DNA from: a phage
Strand: one strand, 5' to 3'
Assembly: GCA_025677605.1 (NCBI GenBank)
Contig: GCA_025677605.1_4110.1
DNA length: 64,000 nt
Each line of letters starts with the position of its first letter. Position 1 is the stretch's first letter. This document shows positions 543-63,743 of the stretch, piece after piece. A program made the position numbers and the translations under genes. The notes under the pieces are model-generated. The model was not told the DNA's origin. It saw only the letters and a list, made by a program, of their open reading frames with translations, and did not search any database.

Positions 543-552
543 ATATTTATTT

Positions 553-3644: not shown

Positions 3645-3708
3645 CATCTTTTTCATTTTTATTTTCGAAGCGTTCTACATATGCATCGAAAATAACTGCT
3701 TGAAATCA

Positions 3709-4053: not shown

Positions 4054-4055
4054 AA

Positions 4056-4457
4056 TTACATCCCCACAAAACCTTGTCTGGCAGCATAAGAAGGAGCATC
4101 TTTAACTTTATAGCTACGATGACCTTCACTGTCAACTTTAGGAGCCATATCTTCAGTACCGAAATCTTCTTCAATTTCTTTAGTACTGTCTTTTGCTTCT
4201 AAGTCATCATTATATTCCACATCTGCCAAAATGTCACATGCTTTTTTAAGTTTTTCTGCGATTTCTTTATGGTCAGAACCTTCTTCTTTTGCTTTATCAA
4301 CTAAAGCAACTAAAGATGTAGTGATTTCCTTTAGTAAATCAACGATAACGTTGTCCGAATCTTCTTGGACAACGATACCATTTTCTTCTTGAGGAACTTC
4401 TTCTTCTGCCATAATCGCATCTAGTGATTCCACTAGTTCACGATAGTTGTATGACAT
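4056..4457 (-). CDS. acidic hypothetical protein (133 aa)
   Basis: ORF in track; strongly D/E-rich composition. Confidence 0.5.
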   Translation of the reverse strand: MSYNYRELVESLDAIMAEEEVPQEENGIVVQEDSDNVIVDLLKEITTSLVALVDKAKEEGSDHKEIAEKLKKACDILADVEYNDDLEAKDSTKEIEEDFGTEDMAPKVDSEGHRSYKVKDAPSYAARQGFVGM

Positions 4458-4458
4458 A

Positions 4459-5403: not shown

Positions 5404-5422
5404 TTTCAATAAATCCTTTTAG

Positions 5423-6895: not shown

Positions 6896-6907
6896 TGTAT
6901 TATCCCC

Positions 6908-7459
6908 TTACGAAATCATTCGAAGTAGTTGCTCACGTTCAGCAGGACTTAGACCTTGTAGAATACCAGCAATACCTTGTGATTGGGTAGATGGATTCGC
7001 CGCTGGTTGTGGTGGTTCATTTGAAGCTTGTGGTGCTGCTGCTGGTTCACTTTGTGGTTTAGCTGGTGCTGGCTCTTCTTGATCACGATATGTGTTCATG
7101 TATTCACGAGCAGCCTGTAATAGAGCGTTACCAACATCTTTTGGTGTAAAAGAACGGCGTTGATTATTACCGAGGAATTTCACATCCAATTGATTACCTT
7201 TGAAGAATTGTGCAACATCAGCATATGGAACAGAGCTTTGTGCTTTGCCATATTTTTTACCAATATATCGTTTAAATTCAGCCCATAGGCGGTTAGCTTC
7301 TGCACCAACTTCCTGTGCACCTTGCTCAATCTGCCCACTACCGAACATACCTTTTACTTTCCCTTTAGCACTATCAATAGCACTTTGAGAACGACTATAA
7401 GGACGAGCTTCATTCAGTTCATTGTCCTCATACTCAAACATTTCATTAAGTATACTCAT
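6908..7459 (-). CDS. hypothetical protein (183 aa)
   Basis: ORF in track; ATG at 7459. Confidence 0.45.
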   Translation of the reverse strand: MSILNEMFEYEDNELNEARPYSRSQSAIDSAKGKVKGMFGSGQIEQGAQEVGAEANRLWAEFKRYIGKKYGKAQSSVPYADVAQFFKGNQLDVKFLGNNQRRSFTPKDVGNALLQAAREYMNTYRDQEEPAPAKPQSEPAAAPQASNEPPQPAANPSTQSQGIAGILQGLSPAEREQLLRMIS

Positions 7460-7462
7460 CGT

Positions 7463-7993
7463 TTATTCCTTTTTACCAAAACCAGCACTCATATATTGAG
7501 AGTATTTATTATCACGTTTAATCTCTTCTTTTGCGTCTTCAACTGCTTTATCAGCACGTTCTTGACCAGAAATACCAGTACTATCTACTGCATCACCGAA
7601 ATCTTTTCCGATAACACGAATTTCGTCAAAATCAACGTCATCTTCACTGATTGACATTTCGATTTGACGTGGTTCATCTTTACCGCGAACACGAATAAGT
7701 GCTTCAGTAACAGATAGAAGGTTTCCAATTTCATACATTAGTACATTAGACTGTACACCACGATTACATTTGAAATCAAACATCCAGATTTCACCACAAT
7801 CTAGTTCATAAAAGTCTAGTGGTTTTTCCATGAAAATAGTTTTCTTCAGAGCACCAACTTCGAAAGCATCATAGCGATCTACTAGACGTTGGGTAACTTT
7901 ACTCAATTGTTCAGTACTAGGTTCAAATGCAAATTTGACACGATATTCATATACAGGTTTATTTTCTGTTAGAATTTGTTGTAGTTTGTTCAT
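7463..7993 (-). CDS. hypothetical protein (176 aa)
   Basis: ORF in track; 3-nt spacing to the downstream gene. Confidence 0.45.
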   Translation of the reverse strand: MNKLQQILTENKPVYEYRVKFAFEPSTEQLSKVTQRLVDRYDAFEVGALKKTIFMEKPLDFYELDCGEIWMFDFKCNRGVQSNVLMYEIGNLLSVTEALIRVRGKDEPRQIEMSISEDDVDFDEIRVIGKDFGDAVDSTGISGQERADKAVEDAKEEIKRDNKYSQYMSAGFGKKE

Positions 7994-8021
7994 TTAATAA
8001 CTCCATTAATGGTCGTTTAAG

Positions 8022-10135
<2,114 letters not shown>

Positions 10136-10146
10136 AGTACTTCTCC

Positions 10147-10923
10147 TTAAAATCCTATATTACCGAATACACGGTCAATGATATCTAGTCCTTGATTAAC
10201 TTTTTCTGGTAGTAATGAATTAATGCGAGTACTATACATTTCTTCAATATTATCAAATTGAATACAATTATCAGGCTTAATTGTAATATCCATAGTTACT
10301 GGTGCACTAGAGCTATATTCCAATGTATCGTAACTGATATTGGTGATGATACACCCTGTAAGAACAAAGTATTCCATTACACCAGCACTGTTATAGTTTG
10401 AGCCACCAATGAACTGATCTACTGCATTAACTAACCCACCATTATTTGTCACAGCGGTTGCAGCAGAAACAGCCGTATTTCTTGCCAAATCTTCAATACT
10501 ATCATCTGTGTTACGTCCATTTAGCATTTGAATAACCATACCAAATTTATACGAACCATAGTCTTGTTCACTTCTGGAGGTAATACGTCTTTGAAAATCT
10601 AATTGTTTTTGTAACTGTCTAGACAATGCTTTAGCACTTTCATTGCCAATTGAATCACGAATTGTTAGTGTGATGGGTTCCCAGTTATGATTACCAATAT
10701 ATGTAGTATTGGTAGTAAAATGGTTCAATTTATGAGTACTGAATGTTACTGTTGGTCTATCAACTTTATCAACATCTAATGCGATGTGATCACGCTCATC
10801 AATATCAGTACCGAAATTATAAACAATAACTCTAAATTTGTACTTCGCTTTAGGTTGTAGCATTGTTTTATTTCTTCCTGATGGTAATGGAACGCCATAT
10901 TTACTAATCATGTTTTTTGCCAT
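10147..10923 (-). CDS. tail tube protein paralogue (258 aa)
   Basis: N-terminus (M..YGVPLP.G...M.QPKAKYKFRVI) is paralogous to the adjacent tube protein; RBS AAAGAGG before ATG at 10923. Confidence 0.55.
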   Translation of the reverse strand: MAKNMISKYGVPLPSGRNKTMLQPKAKYKFRVIVYNFGTDIDERDHIALDVDKVDRPTVTFSTHKLNHFTTNTTYIGNHNWEPITLTIRDSIGNESAKALSRQLQKQLDFQRRITSRSEQDYGSYKFGMVIQMLNGRNTDDSIEDLARNTAVSAATAVTNNGGLVNAVDQFIGGSNYNSAGVMEYFVLTGCIITNISYDTLEYSSSAPVTMDITIKPDNCIQFDNIEEMYSTRINSLLPEKVNQGLDIIDRVFGNIGF

Positions 10924-10965
10924 AGCAACCTCTTTTAATTTAAGGTATTATACTTTATTTAGCAT

Positions 10966-10993
10966 AAAAAAAGCCCCGAAATAGTTTCGAGGC
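10966..10993 (-). terminator. rho-independent terminator
   Basis: Minus-strand hairpin GCCUCGAAA-CUA-UUUCGGGGC (one G-U pair) followed by UUUUUU; lies between the two tube paralogues. Confidence 0.5.
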
Positions 10994-11010
10994 TTTAGAA
11001 GTATCTTTAA

Positions 11011-11694
11011 TTAATCAAAGAAGTTTGTATCAGGTAGTGTAGTACTACTAATGTTGGTTTGTGCACCACTAATAGAAGATGCAGTACTTGGATTACCGAA
11101 ACCAGTAACTTCATCACCGAATGCTTCACCGTTTGGACCCAACTTAGCACAACCATCTGGTTGAACAGTCATAGTAATAACTTGTGCTTCGCTTGAAGAA
11201 TAATCCCAATCACCAAAGTTGCTGGATTCAATAAAGCAACCCTGACAAACCCAAGTACTTAGAGTACCTTCAAAAAGGTTTGTTGCATTTTCGCTATTAG
11301 AACCATCTAGTTCTTGAATCCACATTTCAAATTTAAACTGGGAATCAGTCATACGTGATTCTTGACTATAGTAGTTGAATTCTTTACGCATTTGGTTGTA
11401 AAGTGCTTTTGCTGAAGCATTACCAACTGAATCACGGAAAGCAACTTCAATCGCATCCCAAGTATATTTGCCTTTATAGTGTGCGGAACTGTTATAACTA
11501 TGAACAGTTACGTTTTCATGCGATACAGATACTGCACCAACAGTGTTTGTATCTAGTGTAATCATGTTGCCATCATCATTGGCACCAAAACCAAAGAAAA
11601 TTACACGGAATTTATATTTTGCTTTTGGTTGTTTCATTGAAATACGACCACCACCAGCAAGCGGAACGCCATATCGATCTAGCATAGTAGCCAT
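11011..11694 (-). CDS. tail tube protein (227 aa)
   Basis: Immediately downstream of the sheath gene; size and position typical of a myovirus tube protein; strong RBS AGGAGAA before ATG at 11694. Confidence 0.6.
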   Translation of the reverse strand: MATMLDRYGVPLAGGGRISMKQPKAKYKFRVIFFGFGANDDGNMITLDTNTVGAVSVSHENVTVHSYNSSAHYKGKYTWDAIEVAFRDSVGNASAKALYNQMRKEFNYYSQESRMTDSQFKFEMWIQELDGSNSENATNLFEGTLSTWVCQGCFIESSNFGDWDYSSSEAQVITMTVQPDGCAKLGPNGEAFGDEVTGFGNPSTASSISGAQTNISSTTLPDTNFFD

Positions 11695-11840
11695 TAATTA
11701 ATTCTCCTATTAGGAAATGAGATCTTTATATTATTTATAAAAATTAACATACTTTATGTAGTACTTAATGATATGTTTTATCTATAGGGAACCAATCCAT
11801 ATTAATACAATATGTGTACTGGAATTCACCAGTATATAGC

Positions 11841-12011
11841 TTAAACCTTACACCGAACTGACCATCTGCCATTTGTATAAGCAGAAAAATCACTCACAAT
11901 ACCCACATCTTTTAATACTTCCATTAAGGCTTCTATAAGATTTTGGGCTTCTTCTTGTGATTCTGAATTAAAGGCCAATTCTTGCAGGATACTTTTAATT
12001 ATTTCGTCCAT
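11841..12011 (-). CDS. small hypothetical protein (56 aa)
   Basis: Unlisted ORF (below track size cutoff): ATG at 12011 with GAGAGGGA RBS, in the 395-bp gap between sheath and tube genes. Confidence 0.3.
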   Translation of the reverse strand: MDEIIKSILQELAFNSESQEEAQNLIEALMEVLKDVGIVSDFSAYTNGRWSVRCKV

Positions 12012-12054
12012 ATATCCCTCTCACCTTACTGAATATATGGTATTTAATTTAAAC

Positions 12055-12081
12055 AATAAAAAAGGGAACCATATGGTTCCC
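12055..12081 (-). terminator. rho-independent terminator after the sheath gene
   Basis: Perfect 7-bp stem GGGAACC/GGTTCCC with ATAT loop, 8 nt after the sheath stop, followed by UUUUUU on the minus strand. Confidence 0.6.
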
Positions 12082-12089
12082 TTAGTGTG

Positions 12090-14753
12090 TTATTGAGTCT
12101 TTTCAATACGAATCGGTACGTAAATGAAGTTGATAGACTTAGTAGGTTGGATTGCGATATCCATCCAAAGTTCGTTACGGTCAATACGCTCGGAGGTGTT
12201 GTTACTTTCATCACAAACAACTGCGAAGTTATATAGACCTTGTTGTTGAACGATTTCAGCTAGGAAGCTATTAACTACACCACTGAATTCCTGACGAGTA
12301 CTTGGAGTATTCAAACGGAATAGGAATGGTTCAGAAATAATTTCTAGTTGACGACGAATATAAACAACTAAACGTGCAACGTTAACACGGCTTAATGCGG
12401 AAGTTTGGTTAGGAGATAGTGTTTTATCACCATATACTAGCAAACCACGATTTGGACGCATTGCAATTGGGTTAATGTTGTTGGTGTACATTACATCACG
12501 TTGACCTTGGTTATAAACTACTGGCTGATATTCACCTTCATCATTGATGAAGCCAACAGATGCAGCGTTTGTTACAACACCACGAGTAGTACCAGCAGGT
12601 GGATACCATACATAACTTACGCTGTCGCTGTATGCATAGGTACGCATTGCAATAGTACTGCCAGGAACTGCAACTTCTTCACCATCAACGTTAGTACTTA
12701 AGCACCAGCCCATATATTGAGCAGCATAATCATATGCAGTAGTACGACCAACATCACCATTACTTGGTGCGTTATTTGCGTTAGTTGCCCATTGTTGAAC
12801 AGCATTACCGTTACCAGTTGGGTTCAAACGTGCTGGAACATCAGTTACGATGAAAGCAGTTTCTTTACGGTCGGTGTTTAGGGTCACACACTCATCTAAA
12901 CATTCAACATAACCAGGAACAGAAATTAGGTTAAAGTCAATGAATTCAGAACGGATATCATCGTTTCCAACGATAACTGCATTTAGTGCTTCTACAACCA
13001 ATTGGCGTTGAGCAGCACGACCAAACAAGCCATTCCCATCAAGACCAACACCACTGACAACATGCCAAAATCCATCGATCATTTTCTTAACCACACCTTC
13101 AGTATTTCCAAGGTCGATTGCGAGCATACCGTTTTGGTATAGAGCAGCCGCTGGAACTTGTTCAGGGAAGTTAAAGTCTTTGAAGATCATACCGTTTAGT
13201 GTACTTTGATCAGTACTGTCAAGTTTAACCCACTCACCATTAACATTACGATAGAAATCGTAGCCATCAATACCTTGTGATTTAGGAGAAACCCAGATTG
13301 TACGGTCAGCAGCAGGTTCGTCAACTTGCACATATTTGTTAGCTTCGTCAACTTCAACCCATTTGTCATTAGCAACATCAGCTAGATACATGGTAACATT
13401 TAGATTATCAGAATTACTGAAATCATACCATAGAGTACCTTCTTTAGCGATACTACGTGGAACGTTACTATCAACACGGAAATTGTTAACGTTAATCAAA
13501 GCATAGTTATTACTATCAACAGTTAGTTTTGCAAATTCATCTTCATCAAATAGTACACTACCACTTTGTGCAGTTTTGAAACTATAACCTTTAGAACTAT
13601 TAATTACTAGGCCACCATTACTTTCTCTTTTAAATTTAAAGCCATCATTGATTAGTTCAGATGAAGCATTTAGATTGTCAAGAATAGTTTGGGTGTTGAT
13701 AACACCACCTAGTGCAACTGCTAGTACTTTAACAGTTTTGGTCAAATAAGAGAAAGTCAAGTAAGAATCTTGGTCTGCTTGAACAACTACAGTTTCACCA
13801 ACTGGAATCGCTGGAGCACTTAGTGCTGGTAGTTTTGCACTTTGAATATAGAAAGAGAAACTCTTACTATCCCAGTCAAAACGAGTAGCGATGAAGCTGT
13901 TATTTAGAACACCACTTTTGGATTCAATTTCTTGGAAACTGTTACCAGTGAATGCTTGTACTTGATTCCAAACTTGAGTTAGGGATGCATAACGTTTAAT
14001 AACAAAACGAGTACCGAAGTAATTAGCACCATTTTGAGTGTAACCATCACGAATCCAGATATTACCTTTCTCAACTGTATTACCTACTGGTACTTTGTTG
14101 ATTGGTGAAAGGTAAGTTTCAACTTGAACTAGACCAGATGCTGCACGTTTGTACATTAGCATTTGACCATTGCTTGGCTTATAACGTAGTACTAGATCGT
14201 CAACGTTAATACCAACTAGGCTAACATCACTAACTTCTTCAGCACTAACAATAGTTACTGGTTTTAGTTGCCAGTCATAGAAACTGGTTGGTGAATCCAC
14301 TTTAGAAACATATGCTTCAACTTGTGATTGAGCAACATCTAGCCACAATGTACCGTTTGGTACTGGACCAGTTGGAGCAGTAGCAGAAGGTGATAGTTGT
14401 GCCAAGTCGATATCTGCACGTACAACATAAGCACGGTTAGTAATACCAAGGTAAGAATAAGCAGCATGTAGGCCGTATTCGTTTAGTTCGTCACCTTGAA
14501 CAACTGAACCATTACTTGATTGAAAAATCGGTGTGCCGTAAGTGTCTAGTGAACTTTTCTGAGAAGTTAGAAGTTGCAACTTACCAGCATTTGCTTTTGT
14601 GGTTCCAGCAGCGATTGTGTTGCTACCTGGTACTAATTTATCTTCTGCGGTAGCAATGATGAATAGTGGTACTGTTCCAGGTGCGGAAGCAGTGCTCATA
14701 CTTTCATCAGTAACTGAAATGGAAACGCCAGGCGATAGGAGTTCTCCTGCCAT
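12090..14753 (-). CDS. tail sheath protein (887 aa)
   Basis: C-terminal domain (SRVNVARLVVYIRRQLE...FAVVCDES...IQPTKSINFIYVPIRIEK) matches the conserved contractile-sheath C-terminus as recalled from T4 gp18; strong RBS GGAGGA; tube gene follows. Confidence 0.85.
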   Translation of the reverse strand: MAGELLSPGVSISVTDESMSTASAPGTVPLFIIATAEDKLVPGSNTIAAGTTKANAGKLQLLTSQKSSLDTYGTPIFQSSNGSVVQGDELNEYGLHAAYSYLGITNRAYVVRADIDLAQLSPSATAPTGPVPNGTLWLDVAQSQVEAYVSKVDSPTSFYDWQLKPVTIVSAEEVSDVSLVGINVDDLVLRYKPSNGQMLMYKRAASGLVQVETYLSPINKVPVGNTVEKGNIWIRDGYTQNGANYFGTRFVIKRYASLTQVWNQVQAFTGNSFQEIESKSGVLNNSFIATRFDWDSKSFSFYIQSAKLPALSAPAIPVGETVVVQADQDSYLTFSYLTKTVKVLAVALGGVINTQTILDNLNASSELINDGFKFKRESNGGLVINSSKGYSFKTAQSGSVLFDEDEFAKLTVDSNNYALINVNNFRVDSNVPRSIAKEGTLWYDFSNSDNLNVTMYLADVANDKWVEVDEANKYVQVDEPAADRTIWVSPKSQGIDGYDFYRNVNGEWVKLDSTDQSTLNGMIFKDFNFPEQVPAAALYQNGMLAIDLGNTEGVVKKMIDGFWHVVSGVGLDGNGLFGRAAQRQLVVEALNAVIVGNDDIRSEFIDFNLISVPGYVECLDECVTLNTDRKETAFIVTDVPARLNPTGNGNAVQQWATNANNAPSNGDVGRTTAYDYAAQYMGWCLSTNVDGEEVAVPGSTIAMRTYAYSDSVSYVWYPPAGTTRGVVTNAASVGFINDEGEYQPVVYNQGQRDVMYTNNINPIAMRPNRGLLVYGDKTLSPNQTSALSRVNVARLVVYIRRQLEIISEPFLFRLNTPSTRQEFSGVVNSFLAEIVQQQGLYNFAVVCDESNNTSERIDRNELWMDIAIQPTKSINFIYVPIRIEKTQ

Positions 14754-14847
14754 ATTAAATCCTCCAAAAATAATTGGTTATTCGAATATATTTCGTATAG
14801 TCTTATTTATTGGTGGATTTAATTGACTTGAGCTAATTGATTTTTTA

Positions 14848-15474
14848 TCAGTTTTTCGTATAAATAATATCCAGTGCTTTGTTTTCTAGGTCTTTTATAG
14901 TTCCATTATTCTTGATAATATAATGTGGGTTGTTAATACCAATCCATGCCCATTCAGATTCATGTACTGATTCCAGTTCAACTGGTTTCATTTGGATATC
15001 ACCTTTATTGTATGATGCTGCTAGACCATACCAGAATGGTAAATTGCGTTGAACTTCAATGATGATACCGTTATTTTCACGAATCATTTTCAATTCATTT
15101 GGAAAACGACAATCAGTAATGATAATGTTACCTTCTATGTCCATCATAGAACGTTCTAAACTGAATACCCAAATGTCATTATGCAAATAACGACGAACTA
15201 CATTAGTACCGTAATTTTGCAGTACCCAACGTGGTGAAACATCATCACGTCCTAATTTATTACACCAGTACTGATCCGGTTGTTCACGAATAGCACGACC
15301 TTCTTTAGTAGTTCCTTCTAGCATTTCCCTGTCCCAGCCAAAAATAGCTGCAACTGAATCTTTCAGGTTCTTTGCAAACGACATACGGGTATATCCATTA
15401 TCGATGAATGTTTTAGCGTATGTATCTTTACCACTTCCTATTGAGCCATTGATGGCTACGATTTTTCTTTCCAT
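14848..15474 (-). CDS. deoxynucleoside monophosphate kinase (T4 gene 1-like)
   Basis: P-loop GSIGSGKDT at the N-terminus and overall resemblance to the T4 dNMP kinase pattern; 208 aa. Confidence 0.65.
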   Translation of the reverse strand: MERKIVAINGSIGSGKDTYAKTFIDNGYTRMSFAKNLKDSVAAIFGWDREMLEGTTKEGRAIREQPDQYWCNKLGRDDVSPRWVLQNYGTNVVRRYLHNDIWVFSLERSMMDIEGNIIITDCRFPNELKMIRENNGIIIEVQRNLPFWYGLAASYNKGDIQMKPVELESVHESEWAWIGINNPHYIIKNNGTIKDLENKALDIIYTKN

Positions 15475-15476
15475 AG

Positions 15477-15734
15477 TTACACTTCCTTCATATATTCATC
15501 ACCAACTAAGCTTCTAACTATATCAATAATAGTTTCATTACCGTTGTATACTGACACATATACAACATAAAATGTTTTTCCATTATCATCCCTGCATATA
15601 CTTGCCCATGCGTTAATTACATCCCTGGTGAATACATCAACTAATGCATTTTTGATAAATCGCCAGTACTGTTCTGATTCGAAATAATTGTCGCTTAATT
15701 TTCCACATCTGAATTTTGCATATTCAATTGTCAT
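15477..15734 (-). CDS. hypothetical protein (about 85 aa)
   Basis: ORF in track trimmed to ATG at 15734, because the longer version would run through a terminator hairpin; the ATG sits inside a GTGATATAATG motif, so the start is uncertain. Confidence 0.35.
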   Translation of the reverse strand: MTIEYAKFRCGKLSDNYFESEQYWRFIKNALVDVFTRDVINAWASICRDDNGKTFYVVYVSVYNGNETIIDIVRSLVGDEYMKEV

Positions 15735-28815: not shown

Positions 28816-29277
28816 TTATTCAAGATACTTAAGTTTATATAAAGTACCCTCAATGAAACTCATTATATCTTCAAGGGTATTAGTACTGCCATAGTCTTCA
28901 GCTTCTTCAAGCATAGCATGAACGTACTTACATTGTTCACAGTATTCTTCAAGAATCGGAATACACTGTTCAATTGGTGTGAACTTATAACTGTGTCCAG
29001 TACCAATTTGTAAAGCACCACGAGTGTTCATAATTCCTTCAATGAACGCATCGACATATTCTGGTAACTCTTTATACAACTCATCTAATTGTAGATGTTT
29101 TGTGTAGTGTTTACTTTGTAAATGCCAGCTATGTGCAATTGCTGGTAGTATAATGCTGTTTTCAATAAATGTCAATAGTACTTCATCATAAGCACTGTCT
29201 TCTTCAGTACAGCCAATGAAGTCCATAACATGTCGCAAGTCGTTAATATTTTCCATAAAATCTCTCCAGGGAGTCAT
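28816..29277 (-). CDS. hypothetical protein (153 aa)
   Basis: ORF in track. Confidence 0.4.
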   Translation of the reverse strand: MTPWRDFMENINDLRHVMDFIGCTEEDSAYDEVLLTFIENSIILPAIAHSWHLQSKHYTKHLQLDELYKELPEYVDAFIEGIMNTRGALQIGTGHSYKFTPIEQCIPILEEYCEQCKYVHAMLEEAEDYGSTNTLEDIMSFIEGTLYKLKYLE

Positions 29278-29288
29278 TCTATGTCTAT

Positions 29289-29705
29289 TTATTTGATCAG
29301 AAATGTAAATTCGGGATTCATATCTCTTATTACTGAATTACGTCTTCTATCCCATACAACTTTACTAAAATACTCGGAGTCATCACATACTATCAGTATA
29401 CAATTCCTAAGAGAACTCGTTGTGTAAGTACTTAAATCATTTTCTGTAATGAAATGAACATTCCTGTTGACTTGTACTGGATAATCTCGTTTAAAAAACA
29501 AAACTACTATAGGTCTTTCAGTACTCAATGCATTAATAAATTCAATTACACTATCATAGATTTCAGTACGGATATTATTAGTTTTTATTGTACTTATGTA
29601 ATTCTGTTTAATTCCGTACTCTTCATTGATTTGATACTCAAAAAACTTTTTAAACAATTCTTTGGTTAAATCAGATGAATTTTTAATATTCGTTGCGTTA
29701 CTCAT
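29289..29705 (-). CDS. hypothetical protein (138 aa)
   Basis: ORF in track. Confidence 0.4.
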   Translation of the reverse strand: MSNATNIKNSSDLTKELFKKFFEYQINEEYGIKQNYISTIKTNNIRTEIYDSVIEFINALSTERPIVVLFFKRDYPVQVNRNVHFITENDLSTYTTSSLRNCILIVCDDSEYFSKVVWDRRRNSVIRDMNPEFTFLIK

Positions 29706-56858: not shown

Positions 56859-57407
56859 TTATAAGTAACTAATCAGTAAATTCTCGGATTGAACAAGATG
56901 TTCTAATTCCATTTTAGCAGTTCCTATGAAGTTTTGTGTCATAAGATTATTATATCCTGCTTCTCGGTTTTGTCCCTTTGAATAACGAGAAATGTGACAT
57001 AAATTAACACCAGCCACTTCTGCACTTGCATGTTTAGCAGTACTGTATCCATCGCGAATCGCTTTCAATTCTTCGTAAGTAACTTCATAACTATAGCTAT
57101 GGGTATGTGCTCCTAGATATAGTTCGTAAGTTTTCAATGGTTTCAATTGTTCGATGAAAATATTATAATTCATCTCTTCCTGAATTTCACGGAATAGTGC
57201 ATCTTCTAAGGTGGCATCGGTATCTTCGACTGTTCCACCACAACCACCCAGTAAACCATCCCAACGAAGCTGGAGTAATACCAGATTCACAACAGGGATA
57301 TCATTTAATTCATAACCTTTATATGGGTTACAATTTCGAGCAAAGAAGTAACAGAATACAAAGTTTGCTCGTTTACCATACTCACCTAGAGGTACTTCTC
57401 GAATCAT
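56859..57407 (-). CDS. NUDIX-like hydrolase (degenerate Nudix box)
   Basis: Segment GGCGGTVEDTDATLEDALFREIQEEM contains the REUxEE core with non-canonical spacing and no trailing Gly; ATG overlaps the SIR2 stop (ATGA). Confidence 0.5.
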   Translation of the reverse strand: MIREVPLGEYGKRANFVFCYFFARNCNPYKGYELNDIPVVNLVLLQLRWDGLLGGCGGTVEDTDATLEDALFREIQEEMNYNIFIEQLKPLKTYELYLGAHTHSYSYEVTYEELKAIRDGYSTAKHASAEVAGVNLCHISRYSKGQNREAGYNNLMTQNFIGTAKMELEHLVQSENLLISYL

Positions 57408-58156
57408 TTCATTCTATCCTTAATGATAGTTTCCAGTACTGGAATCGCTTTTGTAGCTGGTTTTATAATTTTTTCATTGAACATGAAATCGTTATCATTT
57501 TTTCTGATGTTGATATTAATACTAAAGCATGGCAAACAAGCAACCAGATGTGACCATTTCAGTACTGTGTCACTGCTACCAATGACTACAACTGTATCAT
57601 CTTCTGTTAAGGATTGCAATACTAAATTACGCTCATCGTATATTGGGAGTTTTTCACCATCAACATAACGATAATATTCACCAATGAACACTACGTTTGG
57701 TTTCGCAAAGACACCTTCTTTCGGAATGTACGGTTCATAACCACAATCCACAATACTATAATCGTCACCACCAATTGTAAAATTCTCAATAACTTCTTTT
57801 AAATTACCATGTAACTTTAATTCATTGCCACCAATACGAGTATAGAGATCATCCATATTCGAAGTCATATGTAAAAAGTTATCACCGTATGTATCTTCTA
57901 GAGATTTGATATAATAATGCATATCATTAGGAACACAATCTTTCATTTTAACACGTAATGTGTTATAGAAAGTATGCACTAAATGGTACTTAGTACTAAG
58001 ACGTGCAATGTTACATACATCATTTATTTGAAATTGATCCCATAGGCCATCGTCCATGCGAAACGGTTCCATCCCACTTTCAACGGATAGACCTGCACCG
58101 GAAATAACCAATACACGTTTATTACCTTTATTTTTTATAAAAGAGTCAGAAATCAT
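57404..58156 (-). CDS. SIR2-family (sirtuin-like) NAD-dependent protein
   Basis: Sirtuin catalytic motifs in order: GAGLSVESGMEPFR, TSNMDDL (NID-like), LHG (catalytic His), GSSDTV; no zinc-ribbon cysteines seen; 250 aa. Confidence 0.7.
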   Translation of the reverse strand: MISDSFIKNKGNKRVLVISGAGLSVESGMEPFRMDDGLWDQFQINDVCNIARLSTKYHLVHTFYNTLRVKMKDCVPNDMHYYIKSLEDTYGDNFLHMTSNMDDLYTRIGGNELKLHGNLKEVIENFTIGGDDYSIVDCGYEPYIPKEGVFAKPNVVFIGEYYRYVDGEKLPIYDERNLVLQSLTEDDTVVVIGSSDTVLKWSHLVACLPCFSININIRKNDNDFMFNEKIIKPATKAIPVLETIIKDRMK

Positions 58157-58365
58157 AGCTTACCTACTGTACCTAATGAACTCAAATCGTATACAAATAA
58201 GATACACACAACCGAGATGACAATGTGATATATCATCCATCCATTGAATTTCTCTTTGTTTTTGATAATTTTATATATACATTTAATATTATTGTACGCT
58301 ACAACTGCTAGAAATACAACAACAAAATAAACAAAGCATAGTGAAAAGTAATTGATAGTTATCAT
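58153..58365 (-). CDS. small membrane protein (70 aa)
   Basis: Two predicted TM helices; ATGA overlap with the SIR2 start. Confidence 0.4.
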   Translation of the reverse strand: MITINYFSLCFVYFVVVFLAVVAYNNIKCIYKIIKNKEKFNGWMIYHIVISVVCILFVYDLSSLGTVGKL

Positions 58366-58425
58366 AGTTATAATACTCTCCTTATTAAATTAATATAGGG
58401 GATTATAAGAATCCCCTTTTTTGTA

Positions 58426-59028
58426 TTACAGCTTAGGATAGCTTAGTAAATCATACTCAGCACTAACGCTGGTAACATTATCACTTACAATTTTGAAGAT
58501 AGAATCGGTGCGATCAACCATCTTAACACCTGTTTCTTTTTGAACTTCAATATATGCTTGCATAGCTGCAATTGCATGATATGTACCACTACCAACAGAT
58601 GTAATTTGTGTCTTAGGTTGGAGTACTGAAAAATCCTCTTGAACTTCATAAATTGTATGATTATGAAGAATAATAAACTGTCCACCACCAACGTCTTGAG
58701 TTGTATCACGAGCACCCCATTCTTCTTTAAATAGTGTGCGAATACGTGGGATTACCTCAAGTACTAAGTACTGTGAGAATGTTTGGTTTGATTGCTGTTC
58801 AGGTAAATCAAGTTTATACGTCAGCAATTGTCCCATGCGGAAGCTCGACGTGTATCCCATTGCCATAACTTCTTTGGTGCGATTCAATCCACTTTCATCG
58901 ATTTTGATGAATTCTTTTTCAAACACTTTTGGTTCAGTTTGAATTGCTTTAGTGAAACCATTACTACCCAGTTTGTCACCCGCGATAAAAGATGTGTTAC
59001 CATCAGTGTAAGCAATAATACAAGTCAT
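58426..59028 (-). CDS. Ntn-hydrolase, proteasome beta/HslV-like peptidase
   Basis: Thr at position 2 (MTCIIAYTDGNTSFIAGDK) and later SVGSGTYHAIAAMQA follow the HslV/proteasome-beta pattern; GGAG RBS. Confidence 0.5.
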   Translation of the reverse strand: MTCIIAYTDGNTSFIAGDKLGSNGFTKAIQTEPKVFEKEFIKIDESGLNRTKEVMAMGYTSSFRMGQLLTYKLDLPEQQSNQTFSQYLVLEVIPRIRTLFKEEWGARDTTQDVGGGQFIILHNHTIYEVQEDFSVLQPKTQITSVGSGTYHAIAAMQAYIEVQKETGVKMVDRTDSIFKIVSDNVTSVSAEYDLLSYPKL

Positions 59029-59039
59029 TGATATCTCCG

Positions 59040-59336
59040 TTATAAAAGATGCATTACATCTAAGATTGTGTACATGAAATACAATAGTAAACCCAAAATT
59101 ATGAGTAAAATTGTATACGAAATTTTAAAGAAATAATAAAAGTACTTTTCAGTTTTAGAAGAAAACTCACCATTTTCTTCAAGAAAACCACTCTTGAAAT
59201 CACTTGCCATAATCACTGATAAAAGAACAATGATTCCATATGTAACTATAGTAGCATAGAAGATGAACTCTGTCCAGCCTTGAAGATGTGATAATTCTGT
59301 CATTTTTTGTTTCCTTGGTTGATAATGTACAACCAT
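59040..59336 (-). CDS. small membrane protein (98 aa)
   Basis: Two to three predicted TM helices. Confidence 0.4.
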   Translation of the reverse strand: MVVHYQPRKQKMTELSHLQGWTEFIFYATIVTYGIIVLLSVIMASDFKSGFLEENGEFSSKTEKYFYYFFKISYTILLIILGLLLYFMYTILDVMHLL

Positions 59337-59430
59337 TATATCTTAAAATCGGGTGGCAGTACACCACCCTTAACCAAAATCATGAATTAGTATTAGGATT
59401 ATATCATTGCTTCATAAAAAATACAACTTT

Positions 59431-60036
59431 TTATTGAATGATTCCCCATTTAACGAGATCTGATCTTCGTAATACAACGATATCCTCACCATGTTTAGTA
59501 CTGATATCAATGAGTGTTTCAGCGGGGATACCGTTATGTGCGTACAGTGTAAAAAGATACCCAACTTTAGTTGAGACTTGATGTGTAAACTCCATCAACT
59601 GTCTAACTGAAACGAATGTCGTATCTGGATCTGCACCATTCGTAGATACTAGTGAGATGTTATGTAAACCCATCACTGCGGTATCACTCATATCCCTACG
59701 TTCAGATGATGCAGAGAAAAAAACCAGACTACAAGACGAATTACATTGCTTTGGGACATAAACAGTTAACTTTTTAGCAGCCACAAAAAATCCCAAATCT
59801 AATCCTGCATCAAAATCTCCACCAGGTGATGTTATTGTTATAATTTTAAATCTTGTTTCTTTCCACAACTTCTTCACTTCTTGTACAGTTTCATCATTTA
59901 GTTCACCATCAATTGACACAACATGTTCATTTAATAGAAAAACAGATGATTTTTTTGAAACTTCTGCCGCTGCCGGAAAGTTTAATGCAGCGATTAAAAC
60001 AACGGTTTGTACAATCTCTTTCAAGATTCGTTTCAT
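59431..60036 (-). CDS. exported ClpP/S49-like serine peptidase
   Basis: Signal peptide (…LIAALNFPAAA-EV) then ClpP-like ITITSPGGDFDAGLDLGFF block; GAGG RBS before ATG at 60036. Confidence 0.5.
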   Translation of the reverse strand: MKRILKEIVQTVVLIAALNFPAAAEVSKKSSVFLLNEHVVSIDGELNDETVQEVKKLWKETRFKIITITSPGGDFDAGLDLGFFVAAKKLTVYVPKQCNSSCSLVFFSASSERRDMSDTAVMGLHNISLVSTNGADPDTTFVSVRQLMEFTHQVSTKVGYLFTLYAHNGIPAETLIDISTKHGEDIVVLRRSDLVKWGIIQ

Positions 60037-60164
60037 TGATTACCTCGGATTTGAGTTAAGGAACATAAATAATAGTACAATAATTGATCAATTATGTCAA
60101 GTGCAAAACTGAACAATTATGACTGTAGTATCAAGTGTTTTTGTTAAGTTCATTGATTTACCAA

Positions 60165-60193
60165 TTGACCATTTGAACTATGGTATCATATTG
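60165..60193 (+). promoter_or_regulatory. candidate promoter for the plus-strand island (TTGACC-N16-CATATT)
   Basis: Good -35 but weak -10, in the divergent intergenic region; low confidence. Confidence 0.25.
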
Positions 60194-60234
60194 GGAGGCA
60201 GTTTACAATCCCATTTTTAAGGTAAGGAGATGTT

Positions 60235-60750
60235 ATGAAACCAATAGCTGGCTTAGATCAATTTCCATTTGTTATAGGTGGATTGCAGGTTACTGCTGCA
60301 AAGATAGAAGGGCAAGTATTTGTTAAAGAATTGTATGTTATAAAACAAAGAACATTCGATTCATATGATTTAATATCTGAAAATTTCAAGATTTACAAAG
60401 ATATAAAAATCACAGGTAGAAATAAAGATAAATCAACATTGTTGTATGATGATGACGATGCTGAAATTGCTAAATCTTTAGCAAATAATACATTTTGCAT
60501 AAAAGAAGCTGATGCTATTAATAATAAGTATGGTTTTGGTATTCAATATCAAAGTAATAAAATAAAATTACATAATGGTGAAATAATTTTCAGAAGAACG
60601 AACGTGGAGCCAAATTCGTTGTCTAAAGTTATAATAAAGCCAGATGATTTTGTTCTTTATTCAAATGATAAAATGCAATTCACTGCTTACTTCTCTCCGA
60701 AAGATTGGCCTGACCAAACCAGATTTCCACCGTATGCTCGTTTCCAATAA
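60235..60750 (+). CDS. hypothetical protein, paralogue 1 of the plus-strand island (171 aa)
   Basis: RBS AAGGAG 6 nt before ATG; N-terminal approximately 130 aa paralogous to 60855-63023 and 63081-63455; followed by a terminator. Confidence 0.55.
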   Translation: MKPIAGLDQFPFVIGGLQVTAAKIEGQVFVKELYVIKQRTFDSYDLISENFKIYKDIKITGRNKDKSTLLYDDDDAEIAKSLANNTFCIKEADAINNKYGFGIQYQSNKIKLHNGEIIFRRTNVEPNSLSKVIIKPDDFVLYSNDKMQFTAYFSPKDWPDQTRFPPYARFQ

Positions 60751-60761
60751 CTTTATATTTT

Positions 60762-60788
60762 AAGGAGTCTTCGGACTCCTTTTTTTAA
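60762..60788 (+). terminator. rho-independent terminator
   Basis: Perfect 8-bp stem AAGGAGTC/GACTCCTT with TTCG loop followed by TTTTTTT. Confidence 0.7.
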
Positions 60789-60811
60789 TCCTAAAATACT
60801 TTTGGTATAAT
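60783..60811 (+). promoter_or_regulatory. extended -10 promoter (TTTTAA-N17-TGgTATAAT)
   Basis: TGgTATAAT at 60803-60811, about 40 nt upstream of the ATG at 60855. Confidence 0.4.
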
Positions 60812-60854
60812 ATAAATAATATAACACTACAATACAATTTATAAAGGAAAGTAT

Positions 60855-63023
60855 ATGAAAGCAATATCTAGTGAAGGTAAATTGCCTTTTGGTATTGGTG
60901 GTATTAAAGTTTCTGTCGCTAAAATCGATGGTAAGGTGTTAACCGAAACTTTATATATTAACCGTCAACGTTCCGGTAACGTGTATGATCTCATCAATGA
61001 TAATGGTGATATCTATTACAAAGTTTCCATGCGTTGGTATGATACTCGTGGTATCGACATTCCAAATTCTGTTGAACCAGCAGACGCAATTAATATGGTT
61101 CAAGACAATTCATTCATGATCTATGTTGATGATGGTATTAGCATGGGATATACTATGCTTTATATGGGTCGTGTTATTAAATTAAATAATGGTCGCATCG
61201 TAAAACGCGATTATGTTAATGCTGATATCCCCGTAACTGGTGTTGTAATTACACCCAAAGATGCATCTCTTAAAGTTGGTGCAACAAAACAACTATCAGC
61301 CCAAGTAGTTCCATCTAATGCAAAAGACAAGGCAGTAACCTACTCTTCATCTGCTCCTACAATCGTTGAAGTTGATGCTCAAACAGGTCTAGCAACTGCA
61401 CTTGCAAATGGCAATGCTGATGTAACCGTAACAACTCACGATGGTGATTTCACAGATGTGTGTTCTATCGTTGTCAGTACTGGTGTTACAGGTGTTACTG
61501 TTTCTCCTAAAACTGCAACGGTGAATGTTGGAGAAACTCAACAATTGTTAGCTGAAGTTTCTCCTGCATCTGCAACTGATAAGAAAGTTACATGGGCTTC
61601 ATCTGCTCCATCCGTTGCAACAGTTGATAAAGATTCTGGGTTGGTAACAGGTGTATCCAATGGTGATGTTACTATTACTGCAACAACTGAAGATGGTTCA
61701 TTGACTGATACTTCTTCTATTAAAGTTCAAACAGCAGTAACTGGTGTTACGTTAACACCTGAAACATATACATTCACTACTATTGGTGCAAATGAACCAT
61801 TAACAGCAACGGTACTACCAAGAACTGCATCAAATCAGGAAGTTCGTTATGAATCTTCTGCACCTACAGTAGCAGAAGTTGATGATGACGGTTTAGTAAC
61901 TTCTGTTAATAATGGTACTGCCACTATTACCGTAACAACTATTGATGGTGAAAAAACCGCACAATCAATTATTGATGTGACGATCCCAGTAACTGGTATT
62001 AACCTAACACCTGCAACCGCTTCATTAACTTCTGTTGGTGCAACACAGCAATTAACTGCAACTGTTCTACCAGCTAATGCTCGTAACAAAGCAGTAACAT
62101 ACGCAACTTCTGCTGCTGGTGTTGCAACCGTTAGTACAAGTGGTTTAATCACTGCGGTAGCGAATGGCACTGCTAATATCACGGCTACTACTGCTGATGG
62201 TGGCTTTAGTAAAGTTTGTGCAGTAACTGTAGCAATTCCAGTTCCAGTAACAACTATTAATGTTACTCCAGCAACTAAAACATTGACTGCTGTTAACGCA
62301 ACTCAAGCAATGGCTGCTGAAGTTCTTCCAGCTAACGCAACTAATAAAGCTGTAACATGGTCTTCTAGTGCACCTGCTGTAGCGAAAGTTGATGCTAGTA
62401 CTGGTGTTGTAACTGCGTTAACTAACGGTACTGCAAACATTATCGCAACTGCCGCTGATGGAAGTGGTAAAACAGGTCAAGGTGTCATTACTGTGTCAAT
62501 CCCAGTTCCTGTAGCTAGTGTTTCTGTTTCTCCAACAACAGCAACATTAACATCTGTTGGTGCAACTCAACAACTAACACCAACTGTACTACCAGCTAAT
62601 GCTACTAACAAAGCAGTAACTTATAGTACTTCTGCTGCTGGGGTCGCAACTGTTAGTGCAAGTGGTTTAATCACTGCTGTTGCAAACGGTACTGCTGATA
62701 TCACTGTAAAAACTACTGATGGTGCAAAAACTGCAAAATGTGCTGTAACTGTTAATATTCCAGTACCAGTATCCAGCGTTGGTTTAACACCTAAAGCCAC
62801 TGATCTTTCACTATCAGGTACTAAAACAGTTCAACTAGTTCCAGAAGTTCTTCCAGCTAACGCAACTAACAAATCAGTAACTTATAGTGCAGATGAACCT
62901 ACTAAAGTATCTATTAGTGATGATGGATTAGTAACTGCTCTAGAAGAAGGTACTGTAGTCATTACAGTGACTACTGTGAATGGCAATAAAACTGATACTG
63001 CAACTGTAACAATCAGTGCTTAA
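60855..63023 (+). CDS. Ig-like (Big_2) repeat protein with paralogue N-terminal domain (722 aa)
   Basis: N-terminal approximately 130 aa paralogous to neighbours; then about seven tandem approximately 80-aa repeats with the Big_2-type pattern (VTGVTVSP…VTWSSSAP.VATVD..GLVT.V.NG.A.ITATT.DG); RBS AAGGAAA. Confidence 0.7.
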   Translation: MKAISSEGKLPFGIGGIKVSVAKIDGKVLTETLYINRQRSGNVYDLINDNGDIYYKVSMRWYDTRGIDIPNSVEPADAINMVQDNSFMIYVDDGISMGYTMLYMGRVIKLNNGRIVKRDYVNADIPVTGVVITPKDASLKVGATKQLSAQVVPSNAKDKAVTYSSSAPTIVEVDAQTGLATALANGNADVTVTTHDGDFTDVCSIVVSTGVTGVTVSPKTATVNVGETQQLLAEVSPASATDKKVTWASSAPSVATVDKDSGLVTGVSNGDVTITATTEDGSLTDTSSIKVQTAVTGVTLTPETYTFTTIGANEPLTATVLPRTASNQEVRYESSAPTVAEVDDDGLVTSVNNGTATITVTTIDGEKTAQSIIDVTIPVTGINLTPATASLTSVGATQQLTATVLPANARNKAVTYATSAAGVATVSTSGLITAVANGTANITATTADGGFSKVCAVTVAIPVPVTTINVTPATKTLTAVNATQAMAAEVLPANATNKAVTWSSSAPAVAKVDASTGVVTALTNGTANIIATAADGSGKTGQGVITVSIPVPVASVSVSPTTATLTSVGATQQLTPTVLPANATNKAVTYSTSAAGVATVSASGLITAVANGTADITVKTTDGAKTAKCAVTVNIPVPVSSVGLTPKATDLSLSGTKTVQLVPEVLPANATNKSVTYSADEPTKVSISDDGLVTALEEGTVVITVTTVNGNKTDTATVTISA
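61230..62990 (+). repeat. tandem coding repeats (approximately 240-bp period) encoding the Big_2 Ig-like domains
   Basis: Reiterated Ig-like domain units within CDS 60855-63023; copies are diverged, not identical. Confidence 0.6.
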
Positions 63024-63037
63024 TTTTTAATAATATA

Positions 63038-63059
63038 GTGCATGAAAATTATCATGCAC
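63038..63059 (+). promoter_or_regulatory. inverted repeat (GTGCATGA-N6-TCATGCAC) between paralogues 2 and 3
   Basis: Perfect 8-bp inverted repeat in the 57-bp intergenic spacer; possible operator or RNA hairpin. Confidence 0.3.
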
Positions 63060-63080
63060 TTTACTTGGAGAAGTATAATA

Positions 63081-63455
63081 ATGGGTAAACCAATTGCATT
63101 AACCGGAAGACTTCCTTTTTCTATTAATGGTATCGAAATTACTGGTGCTAAAATTAATGGAGCAGCTATTCTTGGTAAACTATATATTTTAAAACAACGT
63201 TCAGCACATACTTATGATCTAATCGATGAAAGCGGTAAGGTTTATGAATATGTTCAGATGGTGTATAGAAATAAAGATTCATATATCATGAATTTCGAAG
63301 ATTCAGATGAAAGCCTTGTAGAAAGCCTAAGAGATAATACTTTCTTCATTAAATTGAAAGATGAAGAAGCAGGTATTGAAGGGTTTTGCACTATGTACAT
63401 GATTCACAAAATTAAATTACATAATGGACAATACATCCTACGTAAAAAAGCATAA
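63081..63455 (+). CDS. hypothetical protein, paralogue 3 of the plus-strand island (about 124 aa)
   Basis: ATG at 63081 with GGAGAAG RBS; paralogous to the N-terminal domains of 60235-60750 and 60855-63023. Confidence 0.5.
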   Translation: MGKPIALTGRLPFSINGIEITGAKINGAAILGKLYILKQRSAHTYDLIDESGKVYEYVQMVYRNKDSYIMNFEDSDESLVESLRDNTFFIKLKDEEAGIEGFCTMYMIHKIKLHNGQYILRKKA

Positions 63456-63460
63456 TAAAA

Positions 63461-63487
63461 AAGGAGCCATAGGCTCCTTTTCTCATT
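63461..63487. terminator. bidirectional rho-independent terminator between convergent genes
   Basis: Perfect 8-bp stem AAGGAGCC/GGCTCCTT with ATA loop, A-run upstream and T-run downstream. Confidence 0.65.
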
Positions 63488-63743
63488 TATTTAACTTTTC
63501 AACAACATAATCAACATCAATTTGGTTATCATAGTAAATTGTAAAGCCAAATCTACCAGTTACTTTCATTTCACGACCAGTAGTGTGGCTAACATTCACA
63601 ATGTAGTACTTGTTATTATGCGGGGAAAAACGTACTTGATAATTCTTATTACCACGCATTGAATAATCAGTATCAACTAAACAATAGATAGCAAACAATA
63701 CAAATATAACAATACAACCTAGAAACAAATATACCATTGTCAT
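63483..63743 (-). CDS. small membrane protein (86 aa)
   Basis: N-terminal TM helix (VYLFLGCIVIFVLFAIYCLV); ORF in track. Confidence 0.4.
   Translation of the reverse strand: MTMVYLFLGCIVIFVLFAIYCLVDTDYSMRGNKNYQVRFSPHNNKYYIVNVSHTTGREMKVTGRFGFTIYYDNQIDVDYVVEKLNK

What the first reader, a model, noticed from the sequence alone, without database searches (positions are those of the whole stretch)
60100..63487. Isolated plus-strand island of three paralogues, one carrying about seven Big_2 Ig-like domains
These are the only plus-strand genes in the window. They are bracketed by terminators (60762-60788 and bidirectional 63461-63487) and preceded by their own promoter-like elements, which is moron-like. 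All three share an approximately 130-aa N-terminal domain (…LPFGIGGIKV..AKIDGKV…Y.LKQRS…YDLI…KIKLHNG…); the middle one adds an array of Ig-like repeats. The paralogues could be alternative forms of one function, for example capsid decoration or surface adhesion with and without the Ig arm.
Basis: partly seen in the sequence, partly recalled or inferred. Interest (0 to 1): 0.65.

Follow-up and report, generated by a model that had tools for sequence, protein, structure and literature searches.

The report
Variable virion surface-fibre locus, jumbo phage
Three late genes of a 350-kb E. coli jumbo phage share a small, so far undescribed N-terminal domain that most likely fastens them to the virus particle, one of them also carrying a string of seven Ig-like domains, which makes this an ordinary kind of phage surface decoration with an unfamiliar anchor.

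Summary
Three plus-strand ORFs (171, 722 and 124 aa) share a ~120-aa N-terminal domain at 32-43% identity. The middle one carries exactly seven Big_2 domains, and two rho-independent terminators are real. The window is an Asteriusvirus (RaK2-like jumbo coliphage), 99% identical to Escherichia phage A4.

The genes are not moron-like. The locus is occupied in every relative examined, its base composition is unremarkable, and ORF2 has the phage's late-promoter motif at the same distance as the tail sheath gene. Published proteomics found the products of the syntenic genes in virions of phAPEC6, CBB and RaK2.

The N-domain defines a family of about 93 clusters. It always sits at residue 1 and is followed by 0 to about 1,740 aa of mostly Ig-like repeats. 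It has no Pfam or NCBIfam model and no solved structural relative.

ORF1 is a deletion remnant of a 1,859-aa gene and is a pseudogene in A4. ORF3 has the domain alone.

Best reading: a Hoc/pb10-like modular surface protein, with an N-terminal anchor and a displayed Ig fibre, in a locus with fast gene turnover. The attachment site, capsid or tail, is unknown.

The parts
60064..60071 (+). Late-promoter-like motif CATAAATA, 163 nt upstream of ORF1
   Evidence: One of only 4 plus-strand ATAAATA in 64 kb. Conserved in the four genomes that keep an ORF1-type gene, present as TATAAATA in 121Q, and mutated in UE-S1 and ph0011, which have lost ORF1. The distance to the ATG is atypically long, so the assignment is tentative.
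60235..60750 (+). ORF1, 171 aa: N-domain (aa 1-~120) plus about 50 aa of a cut-off Ig-like repeat. A deletion remnant of a giant Ig-array gene.
   Evidence: 76-78% identical over aa 1-166 to the N-termini of 1,859-aa and 1,095-aa proteins. About 12.2 kb is missing relative to contig SRR23924980_33567. AF2 gives pLDDT 92-98 for the domain and 35-57 for aa 121-171. In A4 it has a 12-bp deletion and a nonsense codon. Matches phrog_33171 at E 5e-20.
60762..60788 (+). Rho-independent terminator after ORF1
   Evidence: 8-bp GC-rich stem, UUCG loop and U7 tail. Folds at -11.7 kcal/mol, z -3.6. In the relative it follows the last gene before the ORF2-type gene.
60811..60818 (+). Late promoter motif TATAAATA, 36 nt upstream of ORF2
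   Evidence: Identical motif and spacing in A4, UE-S1, ph0011 and the SRR contig. The same motif lies 29-50 nt upstream of the tail sheath and other structural genes of this window. CBB and GAP32 late genes carry ATAAATA (PMC5259590).
60855..61232 (+). ORF2 N-domain (aa 1-126): presumed virion-anchoring module
   Evidence: Matches phrog_33171 at E 1.5e-13. The profile search places this domain at residue 1 in nearly all family members.
61233..63023 (+). ORF2 array of seven Big_2 Ig-like domains (aa 127-722), acidic (pI 4.6)
   Evidence: PF02368 at 380 bits with 7 stretches. Domain boundaries and 39-74% mutual identity. pI. Copy number in orthologues is 4, 6 and 9.
63037..63060 (+). 9-bp inverted repeat between ORF2 and ORF3 (RNA hairpin with no clear U-run)
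   Evidence: with a small downstream hairpin, -14.5 kcal/mol in all, z -4.5. Conserved in UE-S1. Role unknown; possibly a partial terminator or an RNA-stability element.
63081..63455 (+). ORF3, 124 aa: N-domain only
   Evidence: Matches phrog_10468 and phrog_33171 at E 3e-18 and 3e-16. AF2 pLDDT 91, pTM 0.83. No late motif of its own, so it is probably co-transcribed with ORF2. Only relics of it remain in UE-S1 and ph0011.
63457..63483 (.). Bidirectional rho-independent terminator shared with the convergent minus-strand gene
   Evidence: Folds at -14.1 kcal/mol on the plus strand and -16.4 kcal/mol on the minus strand, with U-runs on both.

Best explanation
This is a late-expressed accessory locus for proteins on the surface of the virion of a RaK2-like jumbo coliphage.

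The shared ~120-aa N-terminal domain is the module that fastens the protein to the particle. It consists of a conserved, probably flexible arm (MGKPIAG..PF) followed by two small beta-barrels. Whatever follows the domain is displayed outward.

- ORF2 is the working fibre. Its anchor carries seven acidic Big_2 Ig-like domains. These would form a flexible rod of roughly 25-30 nm that makes weak, reversible contacts with glycans or surfaces, as proposed for T4 Hoc and T5 pb10.
- ORF3 is the anchor alone. It probably occupies attachment sites without a fibre.
- ORF1 is the stump left by a ~12-kb deletion in a giant Ig-array gene and is on its way to being lost.

The locus turns over quickly among relatives through deletion, pseudogenisation and change of Ig copy number.

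Shown here or in papers: the paralogy, the domain content, the late-promoter motif, the terminators, the deletion history, and virion presence of the products of the syntenic genes.

Inferred: that the N-domain is the anchor, where it binds (my preference is the centre of capsid hexamers, stated weakly), and the adhesion role.
For: 1. The family always has the N-domain at residue 1 with a variable C-terminus. There are 93 clusters at 50% identity, 102-1,859 aa long. Of 82 scanned, 42 have Big_2 and others have Invasin_D3, Big_1 or HYDIN-type Ig domains.
2. Virion MS on relatives: phAPEC6 gp347 (domain only) gave 8 peptides and 75.2% coverage, as high as the major head protein at 74.9%. phAPEC6 gp077 gave 10 peptides and 37.8%. 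CBB_112 and CBB_496 were detected, as was RaK2 gp496.
3. Late motif: ATAAATA lies 36 nt before ORF2. The same motif lies 29-50 nt before the tail sheath and other structural genes, and 25-37 nt before CBB_112, CBB_496 and gp077.
4. A conserved second paralogue (phrog_10468, ~380 aa) matches in all 70 records with a hit, and its product is a virion protein.
5. The N-terminal arm is among the most conserved stretches but is predicted unstructured with lower confidence. That is typical of a segment that orders on binding.
6. Unassigned densities exist on 121Q and phAPEC6 particles: a protein at each hexamer centre that anchors a fibre, and decorations on the tail.
7. Turnover.
Against: - No experiment or structure shows what the N-domain binds. 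'Anchor' is deduced from architecture alone.
- In phAPEC6 and 121Q, fibres are seen on capsid and tail although their variable locus encodes only the bare domain. Those fibres are therefore not Ig arrays from this locus.
- MS sequence coverage is not copy number.
- ORF1 and ORF3 are lost or broken in close relatives, so they may contribute nothing.
- The late motif for ORF1 is 163 nt from the ATG, which is atypical.
- No expression or proteomic data exist for this phage itself.
Confidence: 0.7

Rival explanations
1. Same modular protein, but attached to the tail (sheath, collar or baseplate region) rather than the capsid. It would be a tail decoration or whisker base.
For: - phAPEC6 maps show 12 elongated decoration proteins at two levels of the tail and rings of fibres along the sheath, none assigned to a gene.
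- 121Q and CBB have fibres on the sheath.
- Big_2 domains are common on tail tube proteins.
Against: - The database label 'major tail protein' rests only on the Big_2 match. The N-domain matches no tail family.
- Coverage of gp347 as high as the major head protein hints at many copies, but this is weak evidence.
- Nothing here discriminates the two sites.
Confidence: 0.25
2. Only ORF2 is functional. ORF1 and ORF3 are decaying leftovers of past duplications and deletions with no role of their own.
For: - ORF1 is a deletion product with an unfoldable tail and is a pseudogene in A4.
- ORF3 survives only as relics in UE-S1 and ph0011.
- 121Q gp472 is another such relic.
Against: - A domain-only protein is the sole gene at this locus in 121Q, phAPEC6 and PBECO4, and it is found in virions at 75% coverage.
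- ORF3 is intact, has a good ribosome-binding site, and has intact relatives at 62-96% identity.
- ORF1 is intact in this window.
Confidence: 0.3
3. A moron-like or foreign insertion expressed independently of the phage programme for the benefit of the host or of infection, and not a particle component.
For: - Opposite strand to all neighbours, with its own promoter-like motifs and terminators.
- Gene content differs between close relatives.
Against: - The locus is occupied in every relative examined and the syntenic products are virion proteins in three phages.
- GC content is 0.34-0.37, against 0.32-0.40 elsewhere in the window.
- The lineage is described as strictly lytic.
- The promoter motif is the phage's own late motif.
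Confidence: 0.04

Closest known systems
T4 Hoc (highly immunogenic outer capsid protein) family
   Same: A conserved particle-binding domain is joined to a string of variable Ig-like domains. The protein is dispensable, acidic and late-expressed. Relatives differ in Ig number, and some phages carry two copies or swap the displayed cargo (PMC10385173).
   Different: - The Hoc anchor is C-terminal, whereas this one is N-terminal.
- The Ig domains here are Big_2 type and number seven.
- The binding site here is unknown.
T5 pb10 decoration protein
   Same: Same order of modules: an N-terminal capsid-binding domain followed by a C-terminal Ig-like domain displayed outward (from my own knowledge of pb10, not tested here beyond the fold search).
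   Different: - pb10 has a single Ig-like domain.
PHROG families 33171 and 10468 ('virion structural protein') of RaK2-like jumbo phages, for example phAPEC6 gp347 and gp077, CBB_112 and CBB_496, RaK2 gp496, 121Q gp471
   Same: Direct homologues. phrog_33171 matches ORF1, ORF2 and ORF3 (E 5e-20, 1.5e-13, 2.7e-16) and phrog_10468 matches ORF1 and ORF3 (E 4e-10, 2.8e-18). They share synteny between a ClpP-like gene and dCMP deaminase and were detected in virions by MS.
   Different: - These families are named only from proteomics. The papers I searched and read describe no domain definition, structure, binding site or function.
- This window has three copies at the locus, where most relatives have one.
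Ig-like domains on phage structural proteins (Fraser et al. 2006, cited in PMC5259590)
   Same: Big_2 domains are appended to virion proteins as accessory adhesion modules.
   Different: That work concerns Ig domains added to known capsid, tail or fibre proteins. Here the carrier is a separate small domain of its own family.

Membership tests
Pfam Big_2 (PF02368) | Score above the gathering threshold (22.8 bits) for the ~79-residue Ig-like domain | tested here: met
   ORF2 scores 380.5 bits with 7 stretches. ORF1 and ORF3 have none. The ORF1 tail is a fragment of a different, HYDIN-type repeat.
PHROG 33171 / 10468 (RaK2-like virion structural protein; the N-domain family) | Significant profile match over the N-terminal ~120 aa | tested here: met
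   phrog_33171: E 5.3e-20 (ORF1), 1.5e-13 (ORF2), 2.7e-16 (ORF3). phrog_10468: E 4e-10 (ORF1), 2.8e-18 (ORF3). A profile search finds 93 clusters.
PHROG 33171 / 10468 | Product is present in purified virions | not testable with these tools
   Shown by MS for homologues in phAPEC6, CBB and RaK2, not for this phage.
T4 Hoc family | [quoted passage not shown] | tested here: not met
T4 Hoc family | String of Ig-like domains attached to the anchor | tested here: met
   Seven Big_2 domains in ORF2.
T4 Hoc family | One molecule binds the centre of each major-capsid-protein hexamer | not testable with these tools
   121Q and phAPEC6 have an unassigned density at each hexamer centre, but it has not been linked to this family.
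T5 pb10-type decoration protein | N-terminal capsid-binding domain of the pb10 fold | tested here: not met
Moron (autonomous accessory unit of temperate phages) | Own promoter and terminator between genes of the normal programme | tested here: inconclusive
   The terminators are real. The promoter motif is the phage's own late motif, not an independent one.
Moron | Base composition different from the flanks, and present or absent among relatives as a unit | tested here: not met
   GC is 0.344-0.370, against 0.32-0.40 across the window. The locus is occupied in all relatives examined.
Moron | Temperate phage, with the gene expressed from the prophage | tested here: not met
   Asteriusvirus/RaK2-like phages, including A4, are described as strictly lytic (PMC9355613).
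Major tail (tube) protein, the label given to some homologues in RefSeq | Tail-tube fold or family match outside the Ig domain | tested here: not met
   All 'major tail protein' PHROG and PDB matches fall on the Big_2 repeats only.

The most novel reading that the evidence does not exclude
The N-domain is a general docking module of RaK2-like jumbo phages and is the still unidentified protein at the centre of each hexamer of their T=28 capsids, the 'fibre-anchoring' density in 121Q and phAPEC6. The variable locus would then be a plug-in cassette. Phages exchange, lengthen (0 to more than 20 Ig repeats) or delete the displayed cargo while a conserved core paralogue keeps the site. Domain-only paralogues such as ORF3 would compete for the same sites and so set the density of fibres on the particle.
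Probability: 0.2. Interest if true: 0.55.

Novelty: new variant of a known kind. Interest (0 to 1): 0.36.

Why it matters
Ig-bearing accessory proteins on phage particles are well known, so the biology is not surprising. Three things are new.

1. The carrier is a compact domain family with no Pfam or NCBIfam model and no solved structural relative. It appears to be restricted to RaK2-like jumbo phages and a few uncultured relatives.
2. Each genome has one conserved paralogue plus a locus where further paralogues are gained, truncated and lost. Displayed arrays range from none to about 1,740 aa.
3. It gives named candidates (gp347- and gp077-type proteins) for decoration densities that the 121Q and phAPEC6 cryo-EM papers left unassigned.

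If the anchor site were established, the domain could be used to display cargo on very large capsids, as Hoc is used on T4.

Tried and rejected
- **Sigma-70 promoter scan.** No enrichment (19 sites found, 19.8 expected), so I dropped host-type promoters as the basis of the 'own promoter' claim.
- **Tandem Repeats Finder.** Nothing was found at DNA level in the Ig array. The repeats are too diverged (51-76% DNA identity).
- **Word-indexed protein search.** It returned only 3-6 close relatives. The exhaustive profile search was needed to see the family.
- **PDB by sequence, single and profile.** Nothing for the N-domain.
- **'Late genes lie on the opposite strand, as in T4'.** I considered this as the reason for the orientation and rejected it as a general rule. 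The minus strand of this window also carries the tail sheath and other structural genes with the same late motif.
- **Ig arrays from this locus as the 'hairs' of CBB, phAPEC6 and 121Q.** Rejected, because phAPEC6 and 121Q are hairy while their locus encodes only the bare domain.
- **Literature.** Searches and paper look-ups found no description of this domain or of the variability of the locus.
Full report
**What the window is.** The region 60000-63600 is 99% identical to Escherichia phage A4. A4 is a 355-kb member of Asteriusvirus, the RaK2-like jumbo myoviruses. The region is 80-88% identical in parts to phages UE-S1 and ph0011.

**The observation.**
- Three plus-strand ORFs lie at 60235-60750 (171 aa), 60855-63023 (722 aa) and 63042-63455.
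- The third most likely starts at 63081, giving 124 aa. GGAG lies 9-10 nt upstream of that ATG, and A4 is annotated that way.
- Their first ~120 residues are 32-43% identical, with E 9e-34 to 3e-21. No other copy exists in the window.
- ORF2 has exactly seven Big_2 domains (PF02368, 380 bits). They start at aa 127, 211, 295, 379, 465, 553 and 639 and are 39-74% identical to each other.
- The hairpins at 60762-60781 and 63457-63483 are stable, are followed by U-runs, and are much better than shuffled controls.
- The first hairpin separates ORF1 from ORF2, so it does not bracket the island.
- All other plus-strand ORFs of at least 110 aa overlap longer minus-strand ORFs. There are no tRNA genes.

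**Transcription.**
- Sigma-70-like sites are not enriched.
- The late motif reported for CBB and GAP32, ATAAATA, resembles T4's TATAAATA (PMC5259590).
- On the plus strand of the 64-kb window the motif occurs only 4 times. Two of these are at 60065 (163 nt before ORF1) and 60812 (36 nt before ORF2).
- On the minus strand, 9 of 11 copies lie 8-111 nt before a gene start. These genes include the tail sheath (50 nt), several structural proteins (29-43 nt) and a tail-fibre-like gene (29 nt).
- The motif sits 25-37 nt before the homologues CBB_112, CBB_496 and phAPEC6 gp077, and before the ORF2-type genes of A4, UE-S1, ph0011 and a metagenomic relative.
- The ORF1 motif is conserved where an ORF1-type gene is kept and mutated in the two phages that lost it.
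- ORF3 has no motif of its own. It follows a hairpin without a clear U-run, so it is probably co-transcribed with ORF2.
- I conclude these are late genes in their own insulated units within a region of metabolic genes.

**The family.**
- A profile of the N-domain searched against 1.84 billion representatives finds 93 clusters. The domain starts at residue 1 in nearly all of them.
- Total lengths run from 102 to 1,859 aa.
- Of 82 members scanned, 42 carry Big_2. Others carry Invasin_D3, Big_1 or HYDIN-type Ig domains, and a ~600-aa group has no recognised domain.
- tblastn finds the domain in 70 phage records, all of them RaK2-like jumbo phages of enterobacteria and Xanthomonas apart from one 47-kb Klebsiella phage record.
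- Each genome also has a conserved ~380-aa paralogue (phrog_10468; phAPEC6 gp077, CBB_496). This too is a lone gene on the opposite strand to its neighbours.

**Virion presence (published MS).**
- phAPEC6 gp347 is the domain-only gene at this locus. It gave 8 peptides and 75.2% coverage, against 74.9% for the major head protein and 68% for the sheath.
- phAPEC6 gp077 gave 10 peptides and 37.8% coverage.
- CBB_112, the syntenic gene with one Big_2 domain, gave 4 peptides and 24.3%. CBB_496 gave 4 peptides and 17.5%.
- RaK2 gp496 gave 4 peptides and 22.2%.

**Structure.**
- AF2 on a 64-sequence alignment gives a confident model of ORF3 (pLDDT 91, pTM 0.83). It is all-beta with one helix.
- BFVD returns the family itself, plus uncharacterised proteins of Agrobacterium jumbo phage Atu_ph07 and of uncultured phages.
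- There is no Pfam, NCBIfam or PDB sequence match.
- The first 13 residues (MGKPIAG....PF) are 60-90% conserved, yet they are predicted without secondary structure and with lower confidence. I read this as a binding arm, which is an inference.

**History of the locus.** The position between a ClpP-like gene and a small gene next to dCMP deaminase is constant, but the content is not.

| Phage or contig | Genes at the locus |
|---|---|
| 121Q, phAPEC6 | one 125-aa domain-only gene, plus in 121Q a 43-aa relic of another (gp472) |
| RaK2, CBB | domain plus one Big_2 |
| UE-S1 | domain plus six Big_2 |
| ph0011 | domain plus nine Big_2 |
| Contig SRR23924980_33567 | 1,859-aa ORF1-type gene, four Ig-array genes without the domain, a four-Big_2 ORF2-type gene, an ORF3-type gene |
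| GCA_012813795.2 | 1,095-aa ORF1-type gene plus three more genes |

- Window 60014-60717 aligns to the first 483 nt of the 1,859-aa gene and its upstream region. Alignment resumes at 60762, just after the last of the four extra genes. About 12.2 kb is therefore missing.
- The ORF1 tail (aa 121-171) is predicted disordered. In A4, ORF1 carries a 12-bp deletion and a TTG-to-TAG nonsense mutation.
- UE-S1 and ph0011 keep only the ORF1 leader and 3' end, plus relics of ORF3.
- The N-domain types (ORF1, ORF2, ORF3, 121Q gp471, and the core gp077 type) are 21-46% identical to one another. They are old paralogues, not recent duplicates.

**Mechanism.** The architecture is a constant terminal domain, variable displayed repeats, late expression and dispensability. 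That is the architecture of T4 Hoc (PMC10385173) and, from my own knowledge, of T5 pb10. I therefore propose that the N-domain anchors the protein to the particle and that ORF2 displays an acidic seven-Ig rod (pI 4.6) for weak adhesion. Cryo-EM of 121Q and phAPEC6 shows an unassigned protein at each hexamer centre that anchors a fibre, and unassigned decorations on the tail. Which of these, if either, is this family cannot be decided here.

**Verdict.** This is a new variant of a known kind, namely a Hoc/pb10-like display protein on an undescribed anchor domain, in a fast-evolving locus.

Noticed in passing
window 60072-60100 (minus strand): The best sigma-70-like promoter in the region (TTGACA-17-TACTAT, 10/12) points at the divergent ClpP/crotonase-like gene 59431-60036. 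Its -10 box abuts the plus-strand CATAAATA motif, so the 200-bp intergenic region may hold back-to-back promoters of different classes.
   Followed up: partly
whole window, both strands: ATAAATA occurs 4 times on the plus strand and 11 times on the minus strand. My rough composition-based estimate is about 24 per strand. Nearly all minus-strand copies sit just upstream of genes. The motif looks counter-selected outside promoters.
   Followed up: partly
L005 (121Q) 4870-5001, gene 472: The annotated 43-aa 'hypothetical protein' gp472 begins MGEPIAGQDQFPFTLGGYLVDG. It is a truncated relic of another N-domain gene directly upstream of gp471.
   Followed up: yes
L009 1412-8456 and L010 11325-17745: Relatives carry 3-4 extra large genes (541-874 aa) at this locus, made of diverged Ig-like repeats but lacking the N-domain. 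In one contig, two adjacent genes overlap (4003 versus 4036). They might be pieces of a once continuous giant gene or separate fibre subunits.
   Followed up: partly
window 1-15500 (minus strand): By correspondence with the A4 annotation, the same strand that carries the metabolic genes also carries the tail sheath (12090-14753), head completion protein and several MS-type 'structural proteins'. Strand alone does not separate early from late genes in this phage.
   Followed up: partly
window 57404-60036 and relatives: The island's upstream neighbours are a Sir2-like protein, a ClpYQ-like protease and a ClpP/crotonase-like protein. Further upstream in the relatives are Nudix and PhoH-like genes, and a second ClpP gene lies beyond the dCMP deaminase on the other side. 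This cluster of proteases and NAD-related genes is conserved across RaK2-like phages.
   Followed up: no
window about 29105-29254 (plus strand): The A4 record annotates one more small (49-aa) opposite-strand ORF here (A4_511), in a gap between minus-strand genes. A minus-strand ATAAATA lies at 29286-29292. I did not check whether the ORF is real.
   Followed up: no
P0010-P0035 (metagenomic proteins, about 600-645 aa): This is a large subgroup of the family. The N-domain is up to about 50% identical to ORF3, and the ~480-aa C-terminal part has no Pfam match (P0010 and P0024 scanned). P0010 has no full-length counterpart in the phage collection.
   Followed up: partly
PMC9355613 (phage A4): The closest relative, A4, reaches high titres but does not visibly lyse its host in broth. 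The same authors report the same behaviour for CBB.
   Followed up: no
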